The notes beneath the pieces are model-generated. The model made no database searches and was not told the origin of the DNA. It worked only from the letters and a program-made list of their open reading frames with translations. Below are positions 16,487 through 57,172 of a DNA stretch of 64,000 bases, piece by piece (position 1 is the stretch's first letter; each line of letters starts with the position of its first letter). Position numbers and translations under genes: made by a program. The stretch spans positions 492 through 64,491 of the forward strand of contig SIRW01000094.1 of the NCBI GenBank assembly GCA_004366205.1, written 5' to 3'. This stretch comes from Actinomycetota bacterium. Its GTDB lineage: Bacteria > Actinomycetota > Acidimicrobiia > Acidimicrobiales > CADCSY01.

Positions 16487-17449
16487 TTGCCGCCCGTGGG
16501 CGGACCGGTCGTCGAGCTGCGCGCCGTCCGGCGCCGCTTCGGGGACGTCGTCGCCCTCGACGGCTTCGACCTCTCGGCCCCGGCCGGCTCGGTCACCGTG
16601 CTCGTCGGCCCCAACGGCGCGGGCAAGACGACCGCCCTCAGGATCGTCACCGGCGCCTTGGCGCCCGACGCCGGGGAGGTGCGCACCTTCGGGTTGGATC
16701 CCGCCGTGGATGGTGAGGAGATCCGCCGCCGGTGCGGGGTGGTGTCGGCCAAGCCCGCCCTGTACGACCGCCTCTCGGGCCGCGACAACCTCCGGTACTC
16801 GGCCCGCCTCCACGGGCTCGACCGCCACGCCGACGTCGGGTGGGCGGCTGCCCGCTTCGGCATCGAGCACGCCTTGGATCAGCTCGTGGGGGGCTACTCG
16901 ACCGGCATGAAGACCCGCCTGGCGCTCGCCCGGGCTGTGCTCCACCGGCCCGACCTGCTGCTCCTCGACGAGCCCACGTCGGGTCTCGACCCCGAGTCGG
17001 CCCACGCCGTGCTCGCGCTCATCCGCTCCATGGCGGCCGAGGGATCGACCGTCGTGCTCTGCACGCACCTGCTGCTCGAGGCCGACGGCCTCGCCGACAA
17101 CGTCGTGGTGCTGGAGGACGGCGCCGCCGCCGTGGCCGGGTCGCCCGGCGACCTGGCCCGGGCGTGGCTGCCGGACACGGTCCTGCGGGTCGACGCCGAG
17201 GACCGCGCCGTGCTCGACACGCTCGCCACCGCGCCCGGGGTGCTGGCCTACGAGCGCGACGGCGGCCCGGCCACGCTCAGCCTGGACGGCCCCGAGCGCG
17301 TGCCTGACGTCGTGGCGGCGCTCGTGGCCGCCGGGGCCCGGGTGACGCGCCTGGAACCCCGGACCCCCTCGCTCGAGGACGTCTACCTGGCCATCCGTCG
17401 CCGTCCCCGGCCGGGAGGCGATGGGACCGGCGCGGGAGCCGGGTCGTGA
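16487..17449 (+). CDS. ABC transporter ATP-binding protein (ABC-2 exporter type)
   Basis: Walker A GPNGAGKTTAL, signature YSTGMKTRLALA, Walker B LLLLDEPTSGLD. Possible in-frame starts are ATG 16418, TTG 16487 and GTG 16496. I chose 16487 to leave promoter room for the divergent ruvC. Confidence 0.85.
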   Translation: MPPVGGPVVELRAVRRRFGDVVALDGFDLSAPAGSVTVLVGPNGAGKTTALRIVTGALAPDAGEVRTFGLDPAVDGEEIRRRCGVVSAKPALYDRLSGRDNLRYSARLHGLDRHADVGWAAARFGIEHALDQLVGGYSTGMKTRLALARAVLHRPDLLLLDEPTSGLDPESAHAVLALIRSMAAEGSTVVLCTHLLLEADGLADNVVVLEDGAAAVAGSPGDLARAWLPDTVLRVDAEDRAVLDTLATAPGVLAYERDGGPATLSLDGPERVPDVVAALVAAGARVTRLEPRTPSLEDVYLAIRRRPRPGGDGTGAGAGS

Positions 17450-18297
17450 AGACCGCGCCCGCCGAGCGCAGCCTCCGGCTGGACCGGATCGTCGCCATCG
17501 CCGGCACCGACCTGCGCCAGTTGCGCCAGGCCCGGGACTTCTGGATGCCGATGGTGCTCCTGGGCGGCATCTTCTTCGTGTTCGTCCCCGCCCTGCTGCT
17601 CGGGGTGATCAGCGCCGCCGGCGAGATCGAGGCCGTCCGCCAGTTCAGCCAGACCCTCGAGGTGCTGCCCCAGGCCGCCCAGGAGCAGATCCGCGGCGAC
17701 ACCGACGCGGGCCGCACCTCCTACGCGCTCGCCGTCTACCTGTTCGCGCCGCTGGCGGTGGTGGTCCCCCTCACCATCTCGACCGCGGTGGGCGCCAGCA
17801 CGATCGTCGGCGAGCGCGAACGGGGGACCGGCGAGTTCCTGGCGCACGCCCCCGTCTCGGTGCGCGAGATCTACCTCGGCAAGCTCGCCGCCAGCCTCCT
17901 GCCGGGCTACGTCACCACGCTGGTCGGGTTCGCCGTCTACAGCGTGATCGTCAACACGATCGTGGGGCCCGAGGTCGGCGGCTGGTTCTTCCCCACCCCC
18001 GACTGGTGGCTGCTCATGTTCTGGGTCGTTCCGCCCTTCCTGGCCATCACCCTGTCGGTGGTGCTGCGGCTGTCGGCCCGGGTGCGGTCCACCGCCGCGG
18101 CCCAGCAGGCCTCGGGCCTGGTCAGCCTGCCCCTCATCCTCCTCGCCTACGGCCAGGCCACCGGCGCCCTGTTCGGCACCGGGGCCAGCGCCGTGGTCGT
18201 CGGCGCCGTCGCCTGGCTCCTCGCCGTCCTCGGCCTGGTGCGGGGCGCCTCCTCCGTCGCCCGGGCCCGCCTCCTCGGCGTCGCCGACGAGTCGTGA
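17446..18297 (+). CDS. ABC-2 family transporter permease
   Basis: 283 aa, multi-TM. The GTG start overlaps the ATPase stop (GTGA). Confidence 0.75.
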   Translation: MKTAPAERSLRLDRIVAIAGTDLRQLRQARDFWMPMVLLGGIFFVFVPALLLGVISAAGEIEAVRQFSQTLEVLPQAAQEQIRGDTDAGRTSYALAVYLFAPLAVVVPLTISTAVGASTIVGERERGTGEFLAHAPVSVREIYLGKLAASLLPGYVTTLVGFAVYSVIVNTIVGPEVGGWFFPTPDWWLLMFWVVPPFLAITLSVVLRLSARVRSTAAAQQASGLVSLPLILLAYGQATGALFGTGASAVVVGAVAWLLAVLGLVRGASSVARARLLGVADES

Positions 18298-18351
18298 CGC
18301 CGCGCCGGACCCCGGCCCTGCCACCGCCCACCTTCCCCCCGCCCCGCTTCC

Positions 18352-18401
18352 GTTCTGGGTGGCCCACGTCTCACGACAGTGAGACCACACCCACCCAGAA
18401 C
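18352..18401. repeat. 50-nt nested-hairpin repeat, copy A (REP-like)
   Basis: GTTCTGGGTGG-CCCAC-GTCTCAC-GACA-GTGAGAC-CACAC-CCACCCAGAAC. 11-bp outer stem and 7-bp inner stem. 46/50 identical to copy B at 55355 and 42/50 to copy C at 55417. Lies between convergent genes. Confidence 0.9.
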
Positions 18402-18413
18402 CGGGAATGGGGG

Positions 18414-18872
18414 TCAGCGAGCGGTGGTGGCCTCGATGGCGGCGACGAGCTCGTCGGTGCGCTTGAACGACAGGCCGGCGGTGGCGCGGTGGGCGTAGCG
18501 CACGATCCCGGCGGCGTCGACGACGAACACCGAGCGGCGGTAGAACCCGATGGGGCCGAGCACCCCGTAGGCCTCGCCCACCGCCTTGTCGGTGTCGGCC
18601 AGGAGCGGGAACGCGAAGCCCTGGGCGGCGGCGAAGGCCTCCTTGGCGGCGACGTCACCCGGCGCGATGCCCAGCACCTGGGCGCCGAGCCCGTCGAACT
18701 GGCCGATCTCCTCGGTGTAGTGCCGCAGCTGGCGGGTGCAGACCGGTGTGTCGTCGCCCGGGTAGAAGACCAGCACCACGGGCCGGCCGGCGTAGTCGGC
18801 CAGCGAGTAGTCCCGGCCACCCGTGCCGGGCAGCGTGAAGTCGGGGGCGCGCTCGCCCACCTGGACGGCCAC
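18414..18872 (-). CDS. bcp: peroxiredoxin, Bcp/AhpC-TSA family
   Basis: [16 protein letters not shown]...[18 protein letters not shown]. The GTG at 18872 lies 1 nt after the yebC stop. The longer track ORF would overlap yebC. Confidence 0.88.
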
Positions 18873-31222: not shown

Positions 31223-31273
31223 CGTTCTGTGAGGATCTTCTGACCCACAGCGGTAGGAGATCCTCAAAGAACG
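31223..31273. terminator. 51-nt hairpin between convergent genes, sharing the CGTTCT...AGAACG ends of the 50-nt repeat family
   Basis: CGTTCT-g-TGAGGATCT-(19-nt loop)-AGATCCTCA-a-AGAACG. Locally AT-richer than its surroundings. Confidence 0.45.
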
Positions 31274-54578: not shown

Positions 54579-55298
54579 GTGATGGGTCCGGTGGAGATCG
54601 CCGTCGTCGCCGCCGTGGTGCTGGTGGGGGCGCTGCTGCAGGGGACGGTGGGCTTCGGCCTCAACCTGGTCGCCGCGCCCGTGCTGGTGCTCCTCGAGCC
54701 CCGGCTCGTGCCCGGCCCGCTGCTCTTGTGCGCCCTGGTGCTGACGCTCGCCATGACCTGGCGGGAGCGCCGCGCCGCCGACCTGTCGGGGCTCGGTTGG
54801 GCCATGGTCGGTCGGCTCCCCGGGACCGCGGCGGGCGCGGGTGCCGTCGCCCTCCTCCCCGCCCGGGGCCTGGCGCTCGCCTTGGGCGGGACCGTCCTGG
54901 CCGGGGTGGCCATGAGCGCCGCCGGTCGGCGCTTCCCGCCCTCTCGCCCCACGCTGGTGACCGCCGGCGCCGTGTCCGGGCTGATGGGCACGGCGACCTC
55001 GATCGGGGGCCCGCCGATGGCGCTGGTCTACCAGGACTCCCCCGGCGCCACGCTACGGGCGACCCTGTCGGCGTTCTTCGTCGTCGGTTCGGTGGTCTCG
55101 CTCGCCGCCCTGGCGGTCGTGGGCCGCTTCGGCGCCTGGGAGGCCACGGCCGGCCTGCTGCTGATGCCGCCCCTGCTCGCCGGCTTCGCCGTGTCCGCCC
55201 GTACCGGCGCCGCCGTCGACCGCGGCCGCACCCGCGTCGCCGTGCTGGCCGTCTCCGCGCTCGCCGGCCTCACCGTCGTCCTCGCCAACCTCCCCTGA
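54579..55298 (+). CDS. TauE/SafE family sulfite/anion exporter-like membrane protein
   Basis: 239 aa, multi-TM, with LLQGTVGFGLNLVAAPVL. Confidence 0.75.
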   Translation: MMGPVEIAVVAAVVLVGALLQGTVGFGLNLVAAPVLVLLEPRLVPGPLLLCALVLTLAMTWRERRAADLSGLGWAMVGRLPGTAAGAGAVALLPARGLALALGGTVLAGVAMSAAGRRFPPSRPTLVTAGAVSGLMGTATSIGGPPMALVYQDSPGATLRATLSAFFVVGSVVSLAALAVVGRFGAWEATAGLLLMPPLLAGFAVSARTGAAVDRGRTRVAVLAVSALAGLTVVLANLP

Positions 55299-55303
55299 AC
55301 CAG

Positions 55304-55354
55304 CACCCCAACCCCCACCCCCACCCCCAACCCCAAACCCCCAACCCCCAACCC
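55304..55354. repeat. 51-nt tract made only of C and A (CCCCA/CCCCAA-like units); its complement has eight G-runs
   Basis: Read directly: caccccaacccccacccccacccccaaccccaaacccccaacccccaaccc. Starts 6 nt after the TauE stop and abuts repeat copy B. Confidence 0.9.
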
Positions 55355-55404
55355 GTTCTGGGTGGCCCACCTCTCACGAGCGTGAGACCAGACCCACCCA
55401 GAAC
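55355..55404. repeat. 50-nt nested-hairpin repeat, copy B
   Basis: GTTCTGGGTGG-CCCAC-CTCTCAC-GAGC-GTGAGAC-CAGAC-CCACCCAGAAC. Confidence 0.9.
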
Positions 55405-55416
55405 CCGCCCCCACCC

Positions 55417-55466
55417 GTTCTGGGTGGCTCACGTCTCATCAGGGTGAGACCCGAGCCACCCAGAAC
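55417..55466. repeat. 50-nt nested-hairpin repeat, copy C
   Basis: GTTCTGGGTGG-CTCAC-GTCTCAT-CAGG-GTGAGAC-CCGAG-CCACCCAGAAC. Here GGCTC/GAGCC pair, which extends the outer stem. Confidence 0.9.
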
Positions 55467-55502
55467 CAAGACGGCGTGGGGGGCGCGGGTAGGTTGGCGG
55501 GC

Positions 55503-57172
55503 ATGGCGAAGGGCCGGGACGTCCTGCTCGAGGTGCTCCGCACGGAGGGCGTGCGCCACGTGTTCGGCAACCCCGGCACCACTGAGCTGCCGCTCATCGA
55601 CGCCCTGGCCGGGGTCGACGACATCCGCTACGTGCTCGCCCTGCAGAAAGCGACGGCGGTGGCCAGGAGGCGACGGCGGTGGCCATGGCCGACGGCTACG
55701 CCCAGGCCACGGGCCGGCCCGCCGTGCTCAACCTGCACACCTCGGCGGGCCTCGGCAACGCCATCGGCAACCTCACCAACGCCCGGGCCAACGGCACACC
55801 TTTGGTCGTCACCGCGGGCCAGCAGGACCGCCGCCACCTCCACACCGACCCGCTGCTCGGCGGGGACCTGGTGGGTCTCGCCCGCCCGGTGTCGAAGTGG
55901 GCCCACGAGGTCCACCACCTCGAGGAGCTGGCCACCGTGACGCGCCGGGCGTTCCACGACGCCGCCTCGCCGCCCACGGGGCCCGTGTTCCTCTCGCTGC
56001 CGATGGACCTGCTGGACGAGGAGGGCGACGCGCCCCTGCCTGCGCCGTCGCGCATCGAGCGCGGCGCCGTCGCCGGCGGGCTCGACGAGCTCGTTCGGCT
56101 GCTGACCGGGTGCGCGCCCGGGGAGCTGGCCATCGTGGCCGGCGACGAGGTGAGCGCGTCCGGCGGGGTGGACGCCCTGGCCGCCCTGGCCGAGGCGCTC
56201 GGCTGCCCCGTGCACGGCTCGCCGCTGCACTCCACCACCGTGTTCCCACCCGAGCACCCGCTGTGGGCGGGACCGCTCGCCCCCGCCGCCGCCACGATCC
56301 GCGCCACGCTCGAGCGCTACCGCCGGGTGCTGCTCGTCGGCGGGCTGGCCTTCATGGTGTACCCCTACACCGAGGGGCCGGCTGTCCCCGAGGGCGTCGA
56401 GCTCCTGCACCTGTCCCCCGACCCCCACCAGCTCGGGCGCACCTGGCCCGTTCGGCTGGGCCTCGCCGGGGACCCCAGGGCGACGCTCGAGGCGCTCCTC
56501 CCCCTCGTCGTGTCCGCCGCCGACGCCGGAGCGGCCGCCGAGGCGCTCGCCGCCGCCCGCGCCCGCCGCGCGGACGAGCTCGCCCGGTTCGAGGAGACCG
56601 CGCTCGACCGCTACGACCGGGCGCCCATGGACCCGATGGCCGCCGCCCACGCCCTGGTGCGGGCCCTCCCGCCCGACACGGCGGTCGTCGACGAGGCCAT
56701 CACCACGGGCGTCTACGTGCGCGGGTTCCACCGACCCTCGGGGACCGGCCGGTACTTCTTCTGCCGGGGCGGAGGCCTGGGCTGGGGGATGCCCGCGGCG
56801 CTCGGTGTGTCGCTCGGGCACGACGCCGCGCCCGTGCTCTGCGTCGTGGGTGACGGCTCGGCCATGTACTCGCCGCAAGCGCTGTGGACCGCGGCGGCCG
56901 AGGACCTGCCGGTGGTGTTCGCCGTCGTCAACAACCGGCAGTACCTGATCCTGAAGAACGCCCTGCGGGGCCGGGCCGACGAGGCCGCCCGCCGCGAGCG
57001 GTTCATCGGCATGGACCTGGACGCGCCGCCGGTCGACTTCGTGGGCCTCGCCCGCTCCATGGGCGTCGAGGCCACCCTGGTCGAGAAGGCGGCCGATGTG
57101 GCCGACGCCGTGCGGGACGCGCTCGACGCCGGCGGACCGCACCTGCTCGAGCTGCCGATTGCCGCCCGCTGA
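55503..57172 (+). pseudogene. thiamine-diphosphate enzyme, benzoylformate decarboxylase/acetolactate synthase-like, frameshifted by a 20-nt direct repeat
   Basis: N-terminus MAKGRDVLLEVLRTEGVRHVFGNPGTTELPLIDALAGVDDIRYVLALQ is in the frame of ORF 55476-55940. The rest (ATAVAMADGYAQATGRPAV ... GDGSAMYSPQALWTAAAEDLPVVFAVVNNRQY) is in the frame of ORF 55679-57172. Removing 20 nt gives one 549-codon frame. Confidence 0.8.
55647..55686 (+). repeat. imperfect 20-nt tandem direct repeat (16-nt identical core GCGACGGCGGTGGCCA)
   Basis: aaaGCGACGGCGGTGGCCAg | gagGCGACGGCGGTGGCCAt, 17/20 identical. Lies exactly at the frame break of the ThDP enzyme. Confidence 0.9.

What the first reader, a model, noticed from the sequence alone, without database searches (positions are those of the whole stretch)
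55355..55466. Tandem pair of a 50-nt nested-hairpin repeat (REP/MITE-like family)
Two 50-nt elements separated by 12 nt share the layout: outer arm GTTCTGGGTGG, 5 nt, inner arm (G/C)TCTCA(C/T), 4-nt loop, GTGAGAC, 5 nt, outer arm CCACCCAGAAC. A third copy lies 37 kb away (18352-18401). Identities to copy A are 46/50 (B) and 42/50 (C).
- Differences cluster in the loop and the internal 5x5 bulge, while both stems are preserved.
- In copy C the bulge has changed to pair (GGCTC/GAGCC).

Conservation of structure with variation in unpaired positions is what REP/BIME-type elements, small MITEs or a structured RNA family would show. All copies are intergenic. I do not recognise the sequence as a described family.
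Basis: seen in the sequence. Interest (0 to 1): 0.6.

Follow-up and report, generated by a model that had tools for sequence, protein, structure and literature searches.

The report
New hairpin repeat family at gene ends
The two 50-base hairpins belong to a previously undescribed, class-wide group of small palindromic repeats in Acidimicrobiia that sit just after genes, resemble the REP elements of E. coli but lack their known transposase, and probably act as transcript-end hairpins.

Summary
Three 50-nt nested hairpins lie at 18352, 55355 and 55417, and the quoted identities are right.

They are not a local duplication. The 3.44-Mb, 74% GC genome holds 64 copies at 47 loci, each exactly 50 nt. 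Fourteen loci are tandem arrays, 13 of them with an 11-13-nt spacer. A minor 49-nt family (about 16 copies) has the same ends.

Across the class (Acidimicrobiia, judging by the named carriers), 54 of 251 genomes carry their own 48-52-nt hairpin family. The termini GTTCTGG...CCAGAAC are invariant and the interiors are unrelated but fully compensated.

Copies sit about 26 nt past stop codons. 49% lie between convergent genes, against 15.5% of all gaps. Each is flanked by a C-rich 5' tract and a G-rich 3' tract.

Positions are not conserved between genera. No RAYT, TnpB or parent insertion sequence was found, and Rfam, plasmid and literature searches found nothing.

My reading is a REP-like, RAYT-independent repeat superfamily. 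I infer, without transcript data, that it works as a bidirectional, probably Rho-assisted terminator and mRNA-end stabiliser. How it spreads is unknown. Earlier first-reader notes had flagged copies elsewhere in this genome.

The parts
55355..55404 (.). Major-family copy (first of the tandem pair), a 50-nt nested hairpin
   Evidence: Exact arm match. nhmmer score 48.7. Fold -27.6 kcal/mol, z -6.2. Closest relative is the 18352 copy at 46/50.
55405..55416 (.). 12-nt spacer CCGCCCCCACCC between the two copies
   Evidence: 13 of 14 arrays in the genome have an 11-13-nt spacer of unrelated sequence, giving a 61-63-nt period.
55417..55466 (.). Major-family copy (second of the pair), with the best-paired stem of the three
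   Evidence: Fold -37.2 kcal/mol, z -8.5. Closest relatives are copies on contigs C7 and C50 at 44/50, not its neighbour at 43/50.
18352..18401 (.). Major-family copy between convergent genes
   Evidence: Fold -31.5 kcal/mol, z -6.6. It lies 54 nt after the ABC-2 permease stop and 12 nt from the bcp stop. No element lies downstream of bcp in the 11 relatives with usable flank.
55299..55354 (.). C-rich 5' flank, including the C/A-only tract 55304-55354
   Evidence: Genome-wide, stop-to-element segments are 60% C and 23% G, against 41-46% C after other stops. C-G skew is +0.43 next to the element and decays over about 100 nt. Median C/G is 1.95 against 1.07.
55467..55503 (.). G-rich 3' flank running up to the TPP-enzyme start codon
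   Evidence: The mirror-image skew is -0.37. The flank is G-rich even in co-directional contexts, at 57% G. A G-quadruplex motif lies within 60 nt in 22 of 93 flanks, against 44 of 2444 background stretches.
18298..18351 (.). C-rich 5' flank of the 18352 copy
18402..18413 (.). Short G-rich 3' flank of the 18352 copy, up to the bcp stop
31224..31272 (.). Minor-family copy (49 nt, AT-richer interior, same GTTCTG...AGAAC ends) between convergent genes
   Evidence: About 16 copies genome-wide show the same placement and the same flank skew.
54579..55298 (+). Upstream gene (TauE/SafE-family permease), whose stop lies 56 nt before the pair
   Evidence: Pfam PF01925, E = 7e-22.
55504..57172 (+). Downstream TPP-dependent enzyme gene, with its first ~55 codons in a different frame from the rest
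   Evidence: Pfam TPP_enzyme_N/M/C match 55679-57172 only from profile position 53 onward. The N-terminal motif VFGNPGTTE is read from 55504 in another frame.
17446..18297 (+). ABC-2 permease gene ending before copy 18352
   Evidence: Pfam PF12679.
18414..18872 (-). AhpC/TSA (bcp) gene converging on copy 18352
   Evidence: Pfam PF00578, E = 1e-36.

Best explanation
The pair belongs to a genome-specific family of non-autonomous, REP-like hairpin repeats. That family is one branch of a superfamily spread through the class Acidimicrobiia. The superfamily is defined by an invariant 7-bp stem base (GTTCTGG/CCAGAAC), a fixed length of about 50 nt, a hairpin whose interior is free to change, and a C-rich 5' / G-rich 3' setting. 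These points are shown. Two further steps are inferred. First, the copies were scattered in the past by a mechanism that reads the stem base and hairpin shape and does not use a RAYT, and some later grew into arrays by tandem duplication of a ~62-nt unit. Second, because copies survive almost only just after stop codons, each is transcribed into the 3' end of the neighbouring mRNA in either direction. The RNA then reads as a C-rich, G-poor tract (like a Rho loading site), then a very stable hairpin, then a G-rich tract. This would pause RNA polymerase, let Rho terminate, and block 3' exonucleases. That is a two-way terminator and mRNA stabiliser, as shown for E. coli REPs.
For: Family size and uniform length. 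Superfamily: 33 of 41 relatives and 54 of 251 class genomes match, with 0-5 hits to the reversed control pattern. Outside the class there are only 0-2 hits per genome, mostly coding coincidences. Across 20 hand-picked family representatives, 93.7% of cells pair against 62% in shuffles, and 145 cells change on both sides against 46, with 0 of 500 shuffles reaching either value; only the 7-nt termini are invariant. Placement: 21 convergent, 20 co-directional (always next to the upstream stop) and 2 divergent loci, against a background of 15.5% / 69% / 15.3%; the median stop-to-element distance is 26 nt. Runs of 3-10 co-directional genes are bracketed by elements. Relatives show the same placement and flanks. 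Rut-like flanks: median C/G 1.95 against 1.07, and 82% against 11% exceed 1.5. The skew is specific to element loci and is absent from other gene-end hairpins. A rho gene is present. Hairpins are equally stable on both strands. Turnover: only 1 of 22 relatives' element-flanking genes lies near an element here, and none of 11 bcp orthologs has one downstream. E. coli REP325 is a partly Rho-dependent terminator and a stabiliser of the upstream mRNA (bioRxiv 10.64898/2026.03.23.713779).
Against: Placement after genes could simply reflect where insertions are tolerated. Within this genome there is no compensatory signal above shuffles and no excess of G.U over A.C pairs on the sense strand, so selection on an RNA helix is not demonstrated. 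The G-rich 3' flank is also present where a co-directional gene follows, which terminating the sense transcript does not need. The patchy distribution, from 0 to 49 copies within single genera, argues against an essential host role. No mobilising enzyme was identified. The 20 representatives were chosen by eye from the match lists.
Confidence: 0.6

Rival explanations
1. Purely selfish miniature mobile DNA with no host function. A still unidentified enzyme, possibly lost from this genome, recognises the GTTCTGG stem base on folded single-stranded or cruciform DNA and copies the hairpin to new sites. Copies survive only where they do no harm, that is, just after genes.
For: Invariant termini with free interiors, and two or more families with the same ends inside one genome. 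Copy number is patchy within genera. Positions are not conserved between genera. In this genome the copies are old and diverged: mean identity between loci is 73.5%, and only 6 of 47 loci have a twin at 48/50 or better elsewhere. This fits a dead family. A persistent unpaired internal block and two arm types recall the bulges that hairpin-reading recombinases use.
Against: No Y1 (RAYT/IS200) or TnpB gene was found in this genome, and the one IS110 gene is not adjacent to any copy. The Y2 search was uninformative because its control found nothing anywhere. Y1 genes occur only in element-poor relatives. No gene is bracketed by elements other than housekeeping genes, there are no orphan ends and no target-site duplication. 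Arm polarity shows no bias with GC skew. Tolerance alone does not predict the strong, element-specific C-rich/G-rich flanks.
Confidence: 0.25
2. A DNA-level binding or structural site. A conserved host protein (a nucleoid-associated protein, a topoisomerase or a recombinase) would bind the GTTCTGG/CCAGAAC pair or the extruded cruciform. The G-rich flanks would form quadruplexes on opposite strands, marking domain or transcription-unit boundaries.
For: The element is symmetric and strand-independent. The termini are conserved across the class. The fixed 61-63-nt array period is about six helical turns (the number of turns is my inference). Quadruplex motifs are enriched 13-fold in the flanks, 24% against 1.8%. 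E. coli BIMEs bind gyrase and IHF (established knowledge, restated in PMC2817692 as listed).
Against: No candidate protein is known. A host factor's sites would be expected in all members of the class, yet many genomes have none. Sites are not positionally conserved. For E. coli REP325, a chromosome-compaction role was tested and not found.
Confidence: 0.1
3. A family of small structured RNA genes or cis-regulatory RNA motifs with a defined coding strand.
For: Very stable hairpins with z down to -8.5 in intergenic positions.
Against: No Rfam match apart from chance microRNA-hairpin hits with E above 0.2. There is no sigma-70-like promoter. Sense-strand G.U and A.C counts are 28 and 33. Arm polarity runs 6 with and 6 against transcription. 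Both strands fold equally well. The interior sequence is replaced completely between genomes.
Confidence: 0.03

Closest known systems
REP elements of the GTAG- and CGTC-tagged superfamilies (Di Nocera et al. 2013, PMC3733652), including E. coli REP325 as a 3'UTR terminator/stabiliser (bioRxiv 10.64898/2026.03.23.713779)
   Same: Short GC-rich extragenic palindromes in tens of copies. They lie mostly downstream of genes, between convergent or co-directional genes. Families are species-specific within a superfamily defined by a short conserved tag, and several families can share a genome. CGTC REPs likewise lack a dedicated transposase.
   Different: Here the tag is a 7-nt sequence that is base-paired and present at both ends (GTTCTGG/CCAGAAC), not an unpaired tetranucleotide at one end. 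The unit is a single 50-nt hairpin of fixed length, not a 20-40-bp REP or an inverted REP dimer. No RAYT is present. The host is Acidimicrobiia, a group not mentioned in that survey. The strongly skewed C-rich/G-rich flanks are, as far as I know, not described for REPs.
BIMEs (bacterial interspersed mosaic elements) of enterobacteria
   Same: Regularly spaced clusters of palindromic units with fixed-length linkers, amplified by tandem duplication.
   Different: BIMEs alternate REPs of opposite orientation and two types. Here whole hairpins repeat head-to-tail with a 12-nt spacer of no conserved sequence, and with at most 4 units.
MITEs and the palindrome-associated elements derived from IS200/IS605
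   Same: Small, non-autonomous, made entirely of inverted repeats, and lineage-specific in their bursts.
   Different: No target-site duplication, no parent insertion sequence with matching ends, and no Y1 transposase or TnpB in the genome.
Rho-dependent terminators (C-rich, G-poor rut region followed by a pause site) and bidirectional terminators between convergent genes
   Same: A C/G ratio of about 2 over the 80 nt that precede the hairpin from either direction, a stable hairpin as a possible pause site, a rho gene in the genome, and enrichment between convergent genes.
   Different: Ordinary terminators are not repeated sequence families with conserved ends. Function has not been tested here.
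Integron attC sites
   Same: Recognised by folded structure more than by sequence, with only short conserved GTT/AAC-containing boxes at the stem base and unpaired internal bases.
   Different: The order of the boxes is reversed (GTT... at the 5' end and ...AAC at the 3' end, not RYYYAAC...GTTRRRY). There are no gene cassettes between units, and copies are dispersed at gene ends. This comparison is from memory and was checked only against the sequence.

Membership tests
REP (GTAG / CGTC superfamilies) | Unpaired GTAG or CGTC tetranucleotide tag at one end of a 20-40-bp palindrome | tested here: not met
   The consensus starts GTTCTGG and ends CCAGAAC, and both ends are paired. There is no GTAG or CGTC tag. 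Definition taken from PMC3733652.
REP (GTAG / CGTC superfamilies) | Multi-copy, extragenic, mostly downstream of ORFs between convergent or co-directional genes | tested here: met
   64 copies at 47 loci. 41 of 43 classifiable loci face at least one stop codon, and 49% are convergent against 15.5% background.
REP/RAYT system | A RAYT (Y1 HUH transposase, PF01797) in the same genome, typically flanked by REPs | tested here: not met
   No PF01797 match in this genome. Among 40 relatives it occurs only in G015, G022 and G027, which have 1, 0 and 6 elements.
BIME | Clusters of REPs in alternating orientation with defined linker motifs | tested here: not met
   Arrays are head-to-tail repeats of the whole hairpin, with 11-13-nt spacers of unrelated sequence.
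MITE | Terminal inverted repeats plus target-site duplication, and a parent insertion sequence with the same ends | tested here: not met
   The flanks are C-rich on the 5' side and G-rich on the 3' side, not direct repeats. Orphan arms are chance in-gene matches. No transposase gene lies between close pairs.
Intrinsic (Rho-independent) terminator | GC-rich hairpin immediately followed by a U-tract | tested here: not met
   The hairpin is present but no T-run follows. The consensus scan found 0 sites.
Rho-dependent terminator | C-rich, G-poor upstream region, a downstream pause element and a rho gene | tested here: met
   Median C/G is 1.95 against 1.07 background. Stable hairpin. Rho_RNA_bind match at C61:16871-17086.
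Rho-dependent terminator | Transcript 3' ends or read-through that depend on Rho | not testable with these tools
Any Rfam RNA family | Covariance-model match at or near the gathering score | tested here: not met
   Best hits are microRNA hairpin models at 13-22 bits against gathering scores of 66-200.
Integron attC | R'' RYYYAAC ... R' GTTRRRY box order, adjacent to gene cassettes | tested here: not met
   The sequence reads GTTCTGG...CCAGAAC, which is the reverse order. The units are 50 nt and 12 nt apart, with no cassettes.

The most novel reading that the evidence does not exclude
The GTTCTGG...CCAGAAC hairpins are substrates of a so far unrecognised, RAYT-independent machinery specific to Acidimicrobiia. 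This could be a new kind of hairpin-reading mobilising enzyme, or a dedicated host factor that uses a sequence-tagged hairpin with C-rich/G-rich (quadruplex-prone) flanks as a portable two-way transcription-unit boundary. In either case it reads the 7-bp stem base and measures a ~23-bp stem.
Probability: 0.3. Interest if true: 0.75.

Novelty: new variant of a known kind. Interest (0 to 1): 0.5.

Why it matters
Small palindromic repeats have been catalogued mainly in Proteobacteria and are explained by one transposase family, the RAYTs. This is a third tagged superfamily, in a poorly studied and mostly uncultivated actinobacterial class. Its paired tag is invariant across the class, its length is fixed, its flanks are markedly skewed and no RAYT is present.

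It gives a clean natural experiment on what keeps such elements alive. The ends and the shape are conserved while everything between is replaced.

If the termination reading holds, it also offers a ready-made set of portable, bidirectional, U-tract-free terminators for high-GC bacteria, in which intrinsic terminators are hard to recognise. Practically, the repeats sit at several contig ends and so appear to break assemblies. They could also serve as strain-typing markers.

Tried and rejected
- **Local duplication or chance:** rejected. Copies lie on more than 30 contigs and 0 are expected by chance.
- **RAYT/IS200 mobilisation:** no gene in this genome, and across relatives the gene occurs only in element-poor genomes.
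- **IS91-type Y2 transposase:** this idea came from the GTTC/GAAC ends, recalled from memory. There was no match, but the control also found nothing, so the test is uninformative.
- **TnpB:** none.
- **IS110:** one copy at a contig end beside a masked stretch, not adjacent to any element.
- **Parent element with the same ends:** orphan arms are coding-sequence coincidences.
- **Genes bracketed by close element pairs:** only housekeeping genes, both here (ClpP, TetR, enolase, aminotransferase) and in G035 (aroK, aroB).
- **Flanks as a locus-specific extension of the stem:** rejected. Own-flank and cross-locus duplex energies are equal.
- **Flank skew as a general feature of gene ends or terminator hairpins in this genome:** rejected.
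- **Raw fold energies of 3' regions:** uninformative at 74% GC.
- **RNA-strand signal (G.U against A.C) and arm polarity against transcription or GC skew:** no signal.
- **Filled-versus-empty site comparisons:**
  - Exact-protein look-ups found nothing.
  - The one syntenic site in G003 has an extra gene in this genome.
  - The bcp orthologs are not syntenic.
- **Sequence-string literature search:** returned only primers. No paper combines Acidimicrobiia with palindromic intergenic repeats.
- **Plasmid database:** no match.

Full report
**1. Observation**

The pattern GTTCTGGGTGG-N28-CCACCCAGAAC matches at 18352-18401, 55355-55404 and 55417-55466, with none expected in 100 shuffles. So is the remark that the internal bulge pairs in the 55417 copy.

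Each copy folds as an 11-14-bp outer stem, an internal loop, a 6-7-bp inner stem and a 4-nt loop. Free energy is -27.6 to -37.2 kcal/mol and z is -6.2 to -8.5. The opposite strand folds equally well.

**2. A dispersed family, not a local duplication**

The window lies on contig C89 of a 3.44-Mb, 73.9% GC draft genome of 119 contigs that is marker-complete.

- A profile search finds 64 copies at 47 loci, every one exactly 50 nt.
- Fourteen loci are tandem arrays of 2-4 units. In 13 of them the spacer is 11-13 nt, giving a 61-63-nt period, although the spacers are unrelated in sequence.
- In six arrays the units are 49-50/50 identical, so these are recent tandem duplications.
- The window's pair is different. 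Its two units share 43/50, and each is closer to a copy elsewhere (46/50 to the 18352 copy; 44/50 to copies on C7 and C50). It is an old or independently formed pair.
- Between loci the family is diverged. Mean identity is 73.5%, and only 6 of 47 loci have a twin at 48/50 or better elsewhere.
- Several copies sit at contig ends, so the count is a lower bound.

**3. Anatomy**

The consensus is GTTCTGGGTGGCCCnGGTCTCACGnnGGTGAGACCnGnGCCACCCAGAAC. Positions 1-8 and 43-50 are nearly invariant.

The element is not a true palindrome. About 24 of 58 distinct units have one CGCTG-type arm, always partnered with a different arm type. As a result, positions 12-13 and 15-16 are unpaired in 60-82% of copies.

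Within the family, pairing (77%) does not exceed that of partner-shuffled controls (79%). Real double changes are seen only at 19/32 (C-G 21, U-A 15) and 9/42 (U-A 27, G-C 6).

**4. A class-wide superfamily**

The genome's own interior is found in none of 40 relatives. When only the ends are required (GTTCTG-N34-40-CAGAAC), 33 of 41 genomes match with 0-49 copies. The reversed control pattern gives 0-5 hits.

- Each genome has its own interior, and often two to four sub-families. Examples are GTTCTGGCCTGCAGAACG..., GTTCTGGCACCAGAA... and GTTCTGGGACCGATCGGG....
- Across the class, 54 of 251 genomes and 45 of 128 genera match, with lengths always 48-52 nt.
- In about 100 genomes of other classes of the phylum there are only 0-2 hits each, mostly coding coincidences.
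- The named carriers are Acidimicrobiia: Salinilacustrithrix flava and MAGs labelled Microthrixaceae, Acidimicrobiaceae and Acidimicrobiia. The scan also hit a pond MAG labelled only Actinomycetes and one contig of an Anaerolineae (Chloroflexota) MAG.
- On 20 representatives from different genomes, which I picked by eye from the match lists, 93.7% of cells pair against 62% in shuffles. 145 cells change on both sides against 46, and 0 of 500 shuffles reach either value. Only the seven terminal positions on each side are invariant.
- This genome also holds a minor 49-nt family of about 16 copies (GTTCTGTGAGGATCTTCT...AGAAGATCCTCACAGAAC), including 31224-31272 in the window. Three of its copies have swapped but still pairing ends, GAACTG...CAGTTC.

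**5. Placement**

I built a codon-usage gene map of 3226 genes covering 91.5% of the genome. Against it, 21 loci lie between convergent genes, 20 between co-directional genes (always next to the upstream gene's stop), 2 between divergent genes, 2 overlap a call and 2 are at contig edges. The background is 15.5% convergent, 69% co-directional and 15.3% divergent. The median distance from stop codon to element is 26 nt.

Runs of 3-10 co-directional genes are bracketed by elements at both ends.

In the window, the pair lies between the stop of a TauE/SafE permease gene and the start of a TPP-enzyme gene. The 18352 copy lies between convergent ABC-2 permease and bcp genes. Relatives' families sit 5-25 nt from stops in the same way.

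**6. Flanks**

The 20 nt on the 5' side of a locus are about 61% C and 19% G, and the 3' side is the mirror image.

- The skew is +0.43 next to the element and decays over about 100 nt, so it reaches into the ends of neighbouring coding regions. Background at gene ends is 0.02-0.06.
- It is specific to element loci. Other stop-proximal regions have 41-46% C, and other gene-end hairpins show no arm polarity.
- It is present even on the downstream side in co-directional contexts.
- It recurs in relatives' families.
- The two flanks of a locus are not specifically complementary; own and cross-locus values are equal.
- Read as RNA from either direction, the 80 nt before the hairpin have a median C/G of 1.95 against 1.07 background.
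- A G-quadruplex motif follows the hairpin in 22 of 93 cases, against 44 of 2444 background stretches. The C/A-only tract at 55304-55354 is an extreme instance.

**7. Mobility**

Positions are not inherited between genera. Only 1 of 22 relatives' element-flanking genes lies near an element here. None of the 11 bcp orthologs with usable flank has an element downstream, even in genomes rich in their own family. This points to gain and loss.

No mobiliser was found.

- PF01797 is absent here. Among relatives it is present only in three genomes with 0-6 elements.
- There is no TnpB.
- The Y2 search was uninformative.
- The single IS110 gene is not adjacent to any copy.
- There are no orphan ends and no target-site duplications.
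- There is no orientation bias with transcription or GC skew.

**8. Function (inferred)**

There is no U-tract and no promoter-like site, and no Rfam match. There is no strand-specific wobble signal: G.U 28 against A.C 33. A rho gene is present.

Four features match what is now shown for E. coli REP325, a partly Rho-dependent terminator and stabiliser of the upstream mRNA:

- the post-stop position;
- the enrichment between convergent genes;
- the C-rich, G-poor approach from both sides;
- the very stable hairpin.

I therefore favour a two-way, Rho-assisted terminator and 3'-end protector.

**9. Comparison and novelty**

The closest described kind is the tagged REP. The published catalogue recognises GTAG and CGTC tags, does not mention Actinobacteria or GTTC, and notes that CGTC REPs also lack a transposase.

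This superfamily differs in several ways:

- a paired 7-nt tag at both ends;
- a single hairpin of fixed ~50-nt length;
- skewed flanks;
- head-to-tail arrays with a ~62-nt period;
- a different host class.

It fails the defining tests for REP/RAYT, BIME, MITE, intrinsic terminator and attC. It works like a REP without belonging to a described family. I rate it a new variant of a known kind, of moderate interest.

**10. Unexplained**

- The origin of the flank skew is open: target preference, part of the mobile unit, or selection.
- The constant 12-nt spacing across independent arrays is unexplained.
- So is the identity of whatever reads GTTCTGG.

Noticed in passing
window 55504-57172: The TPP-dependent enzyme gene downstream of the pair appears frameshifted. 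The N-terminal ~55 codons (MAKGRDVLLEVLRTEGVRHVFGNPGTTE...) are in one frame, and Pfam TPP_enzyme_N/M/C continue from profile position 53 in another frame (55679-57172). This is either a real pseudogene or an assembly error.
   Followed up: partly
window 55304-55354: A 51-nt C/A-only tract (TTGGGG-like on the other strand) directly abuts the first copy. It is the extreme case of a genome-wide rule: G-quadruplex motifs follow the hairpins, in either reading direction, in 24% of flanks against 1.8% of other intergenic stretches.
   Followed up: partly
window 31224-31272: A copy of a second, AT-richer 49-nt hairpin family (about 16 copies in the genome) with the same GTTCTG...AGAAC ends, the same post-stop placement and the same flank skew. 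Three members elsewhere have swapped ends, GAACTG...CAGTTC.
   Followed up: yes
G000 arrays, e.g. C21:28855-29090, C87:30548-30721, C19:59995-60106: Thirteen independent arrays share a 61-63-nt period although their 11-13-nt spacers are unrelated. In some, the spacer matches the right flank (C33); in others it is a mix of right and left flank (C9, C19). A fixed period with variable breakpoints is not what random tandem duplication predicts.
   Followed up: partly
G000 major-family inner stem (e.g. GTTCCAC-N4-GCGAAAC, GTTTCGC-N4-GTGGAAC): The inner stem resembles the two half-sites of a ParB parS site (GTTTCAC/GTGAAAC, recalled from memory) split by the 4-nt loop. This is probably coincidence, because other genomes' families have unrelated interiors.
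   Followed up: no
G000 C76:9848-9897 and C86:106-155; also C36:120, C25:1084, C88:713: Copies sit at contig ends. C76 and C86 carry the same locus with one base difference. The repeats therefore probably break the assembly or mark strain heterogeneity, so copy number is underestimated.
   Followed up: no
G000 C101:1050-1511 (L084): A single IS110-family (DEDD) transposase gene lies at a contig end next to a withheld (N) stretch. No repeat copy adjoins it.
   Followed up: partly
L093 (G005:C88), downstream of bcp: At least four tandem copies of a ~27-nt unit (gcggcccgggaggccgtcggtcagggg) run to the contig end. This is a different minisatellite-like repeat at the site equivalent to copy 18352.
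   Followed up: no
G003 family (L064-L079): The stems are almost identical among copies, yet every copy has a different 6-8-nt loop. An internal mismatched block (AGAAxC against AGGATC arms) persists, echoing the two-arm-type asymmetry seen in this genome.
   Followed up: no
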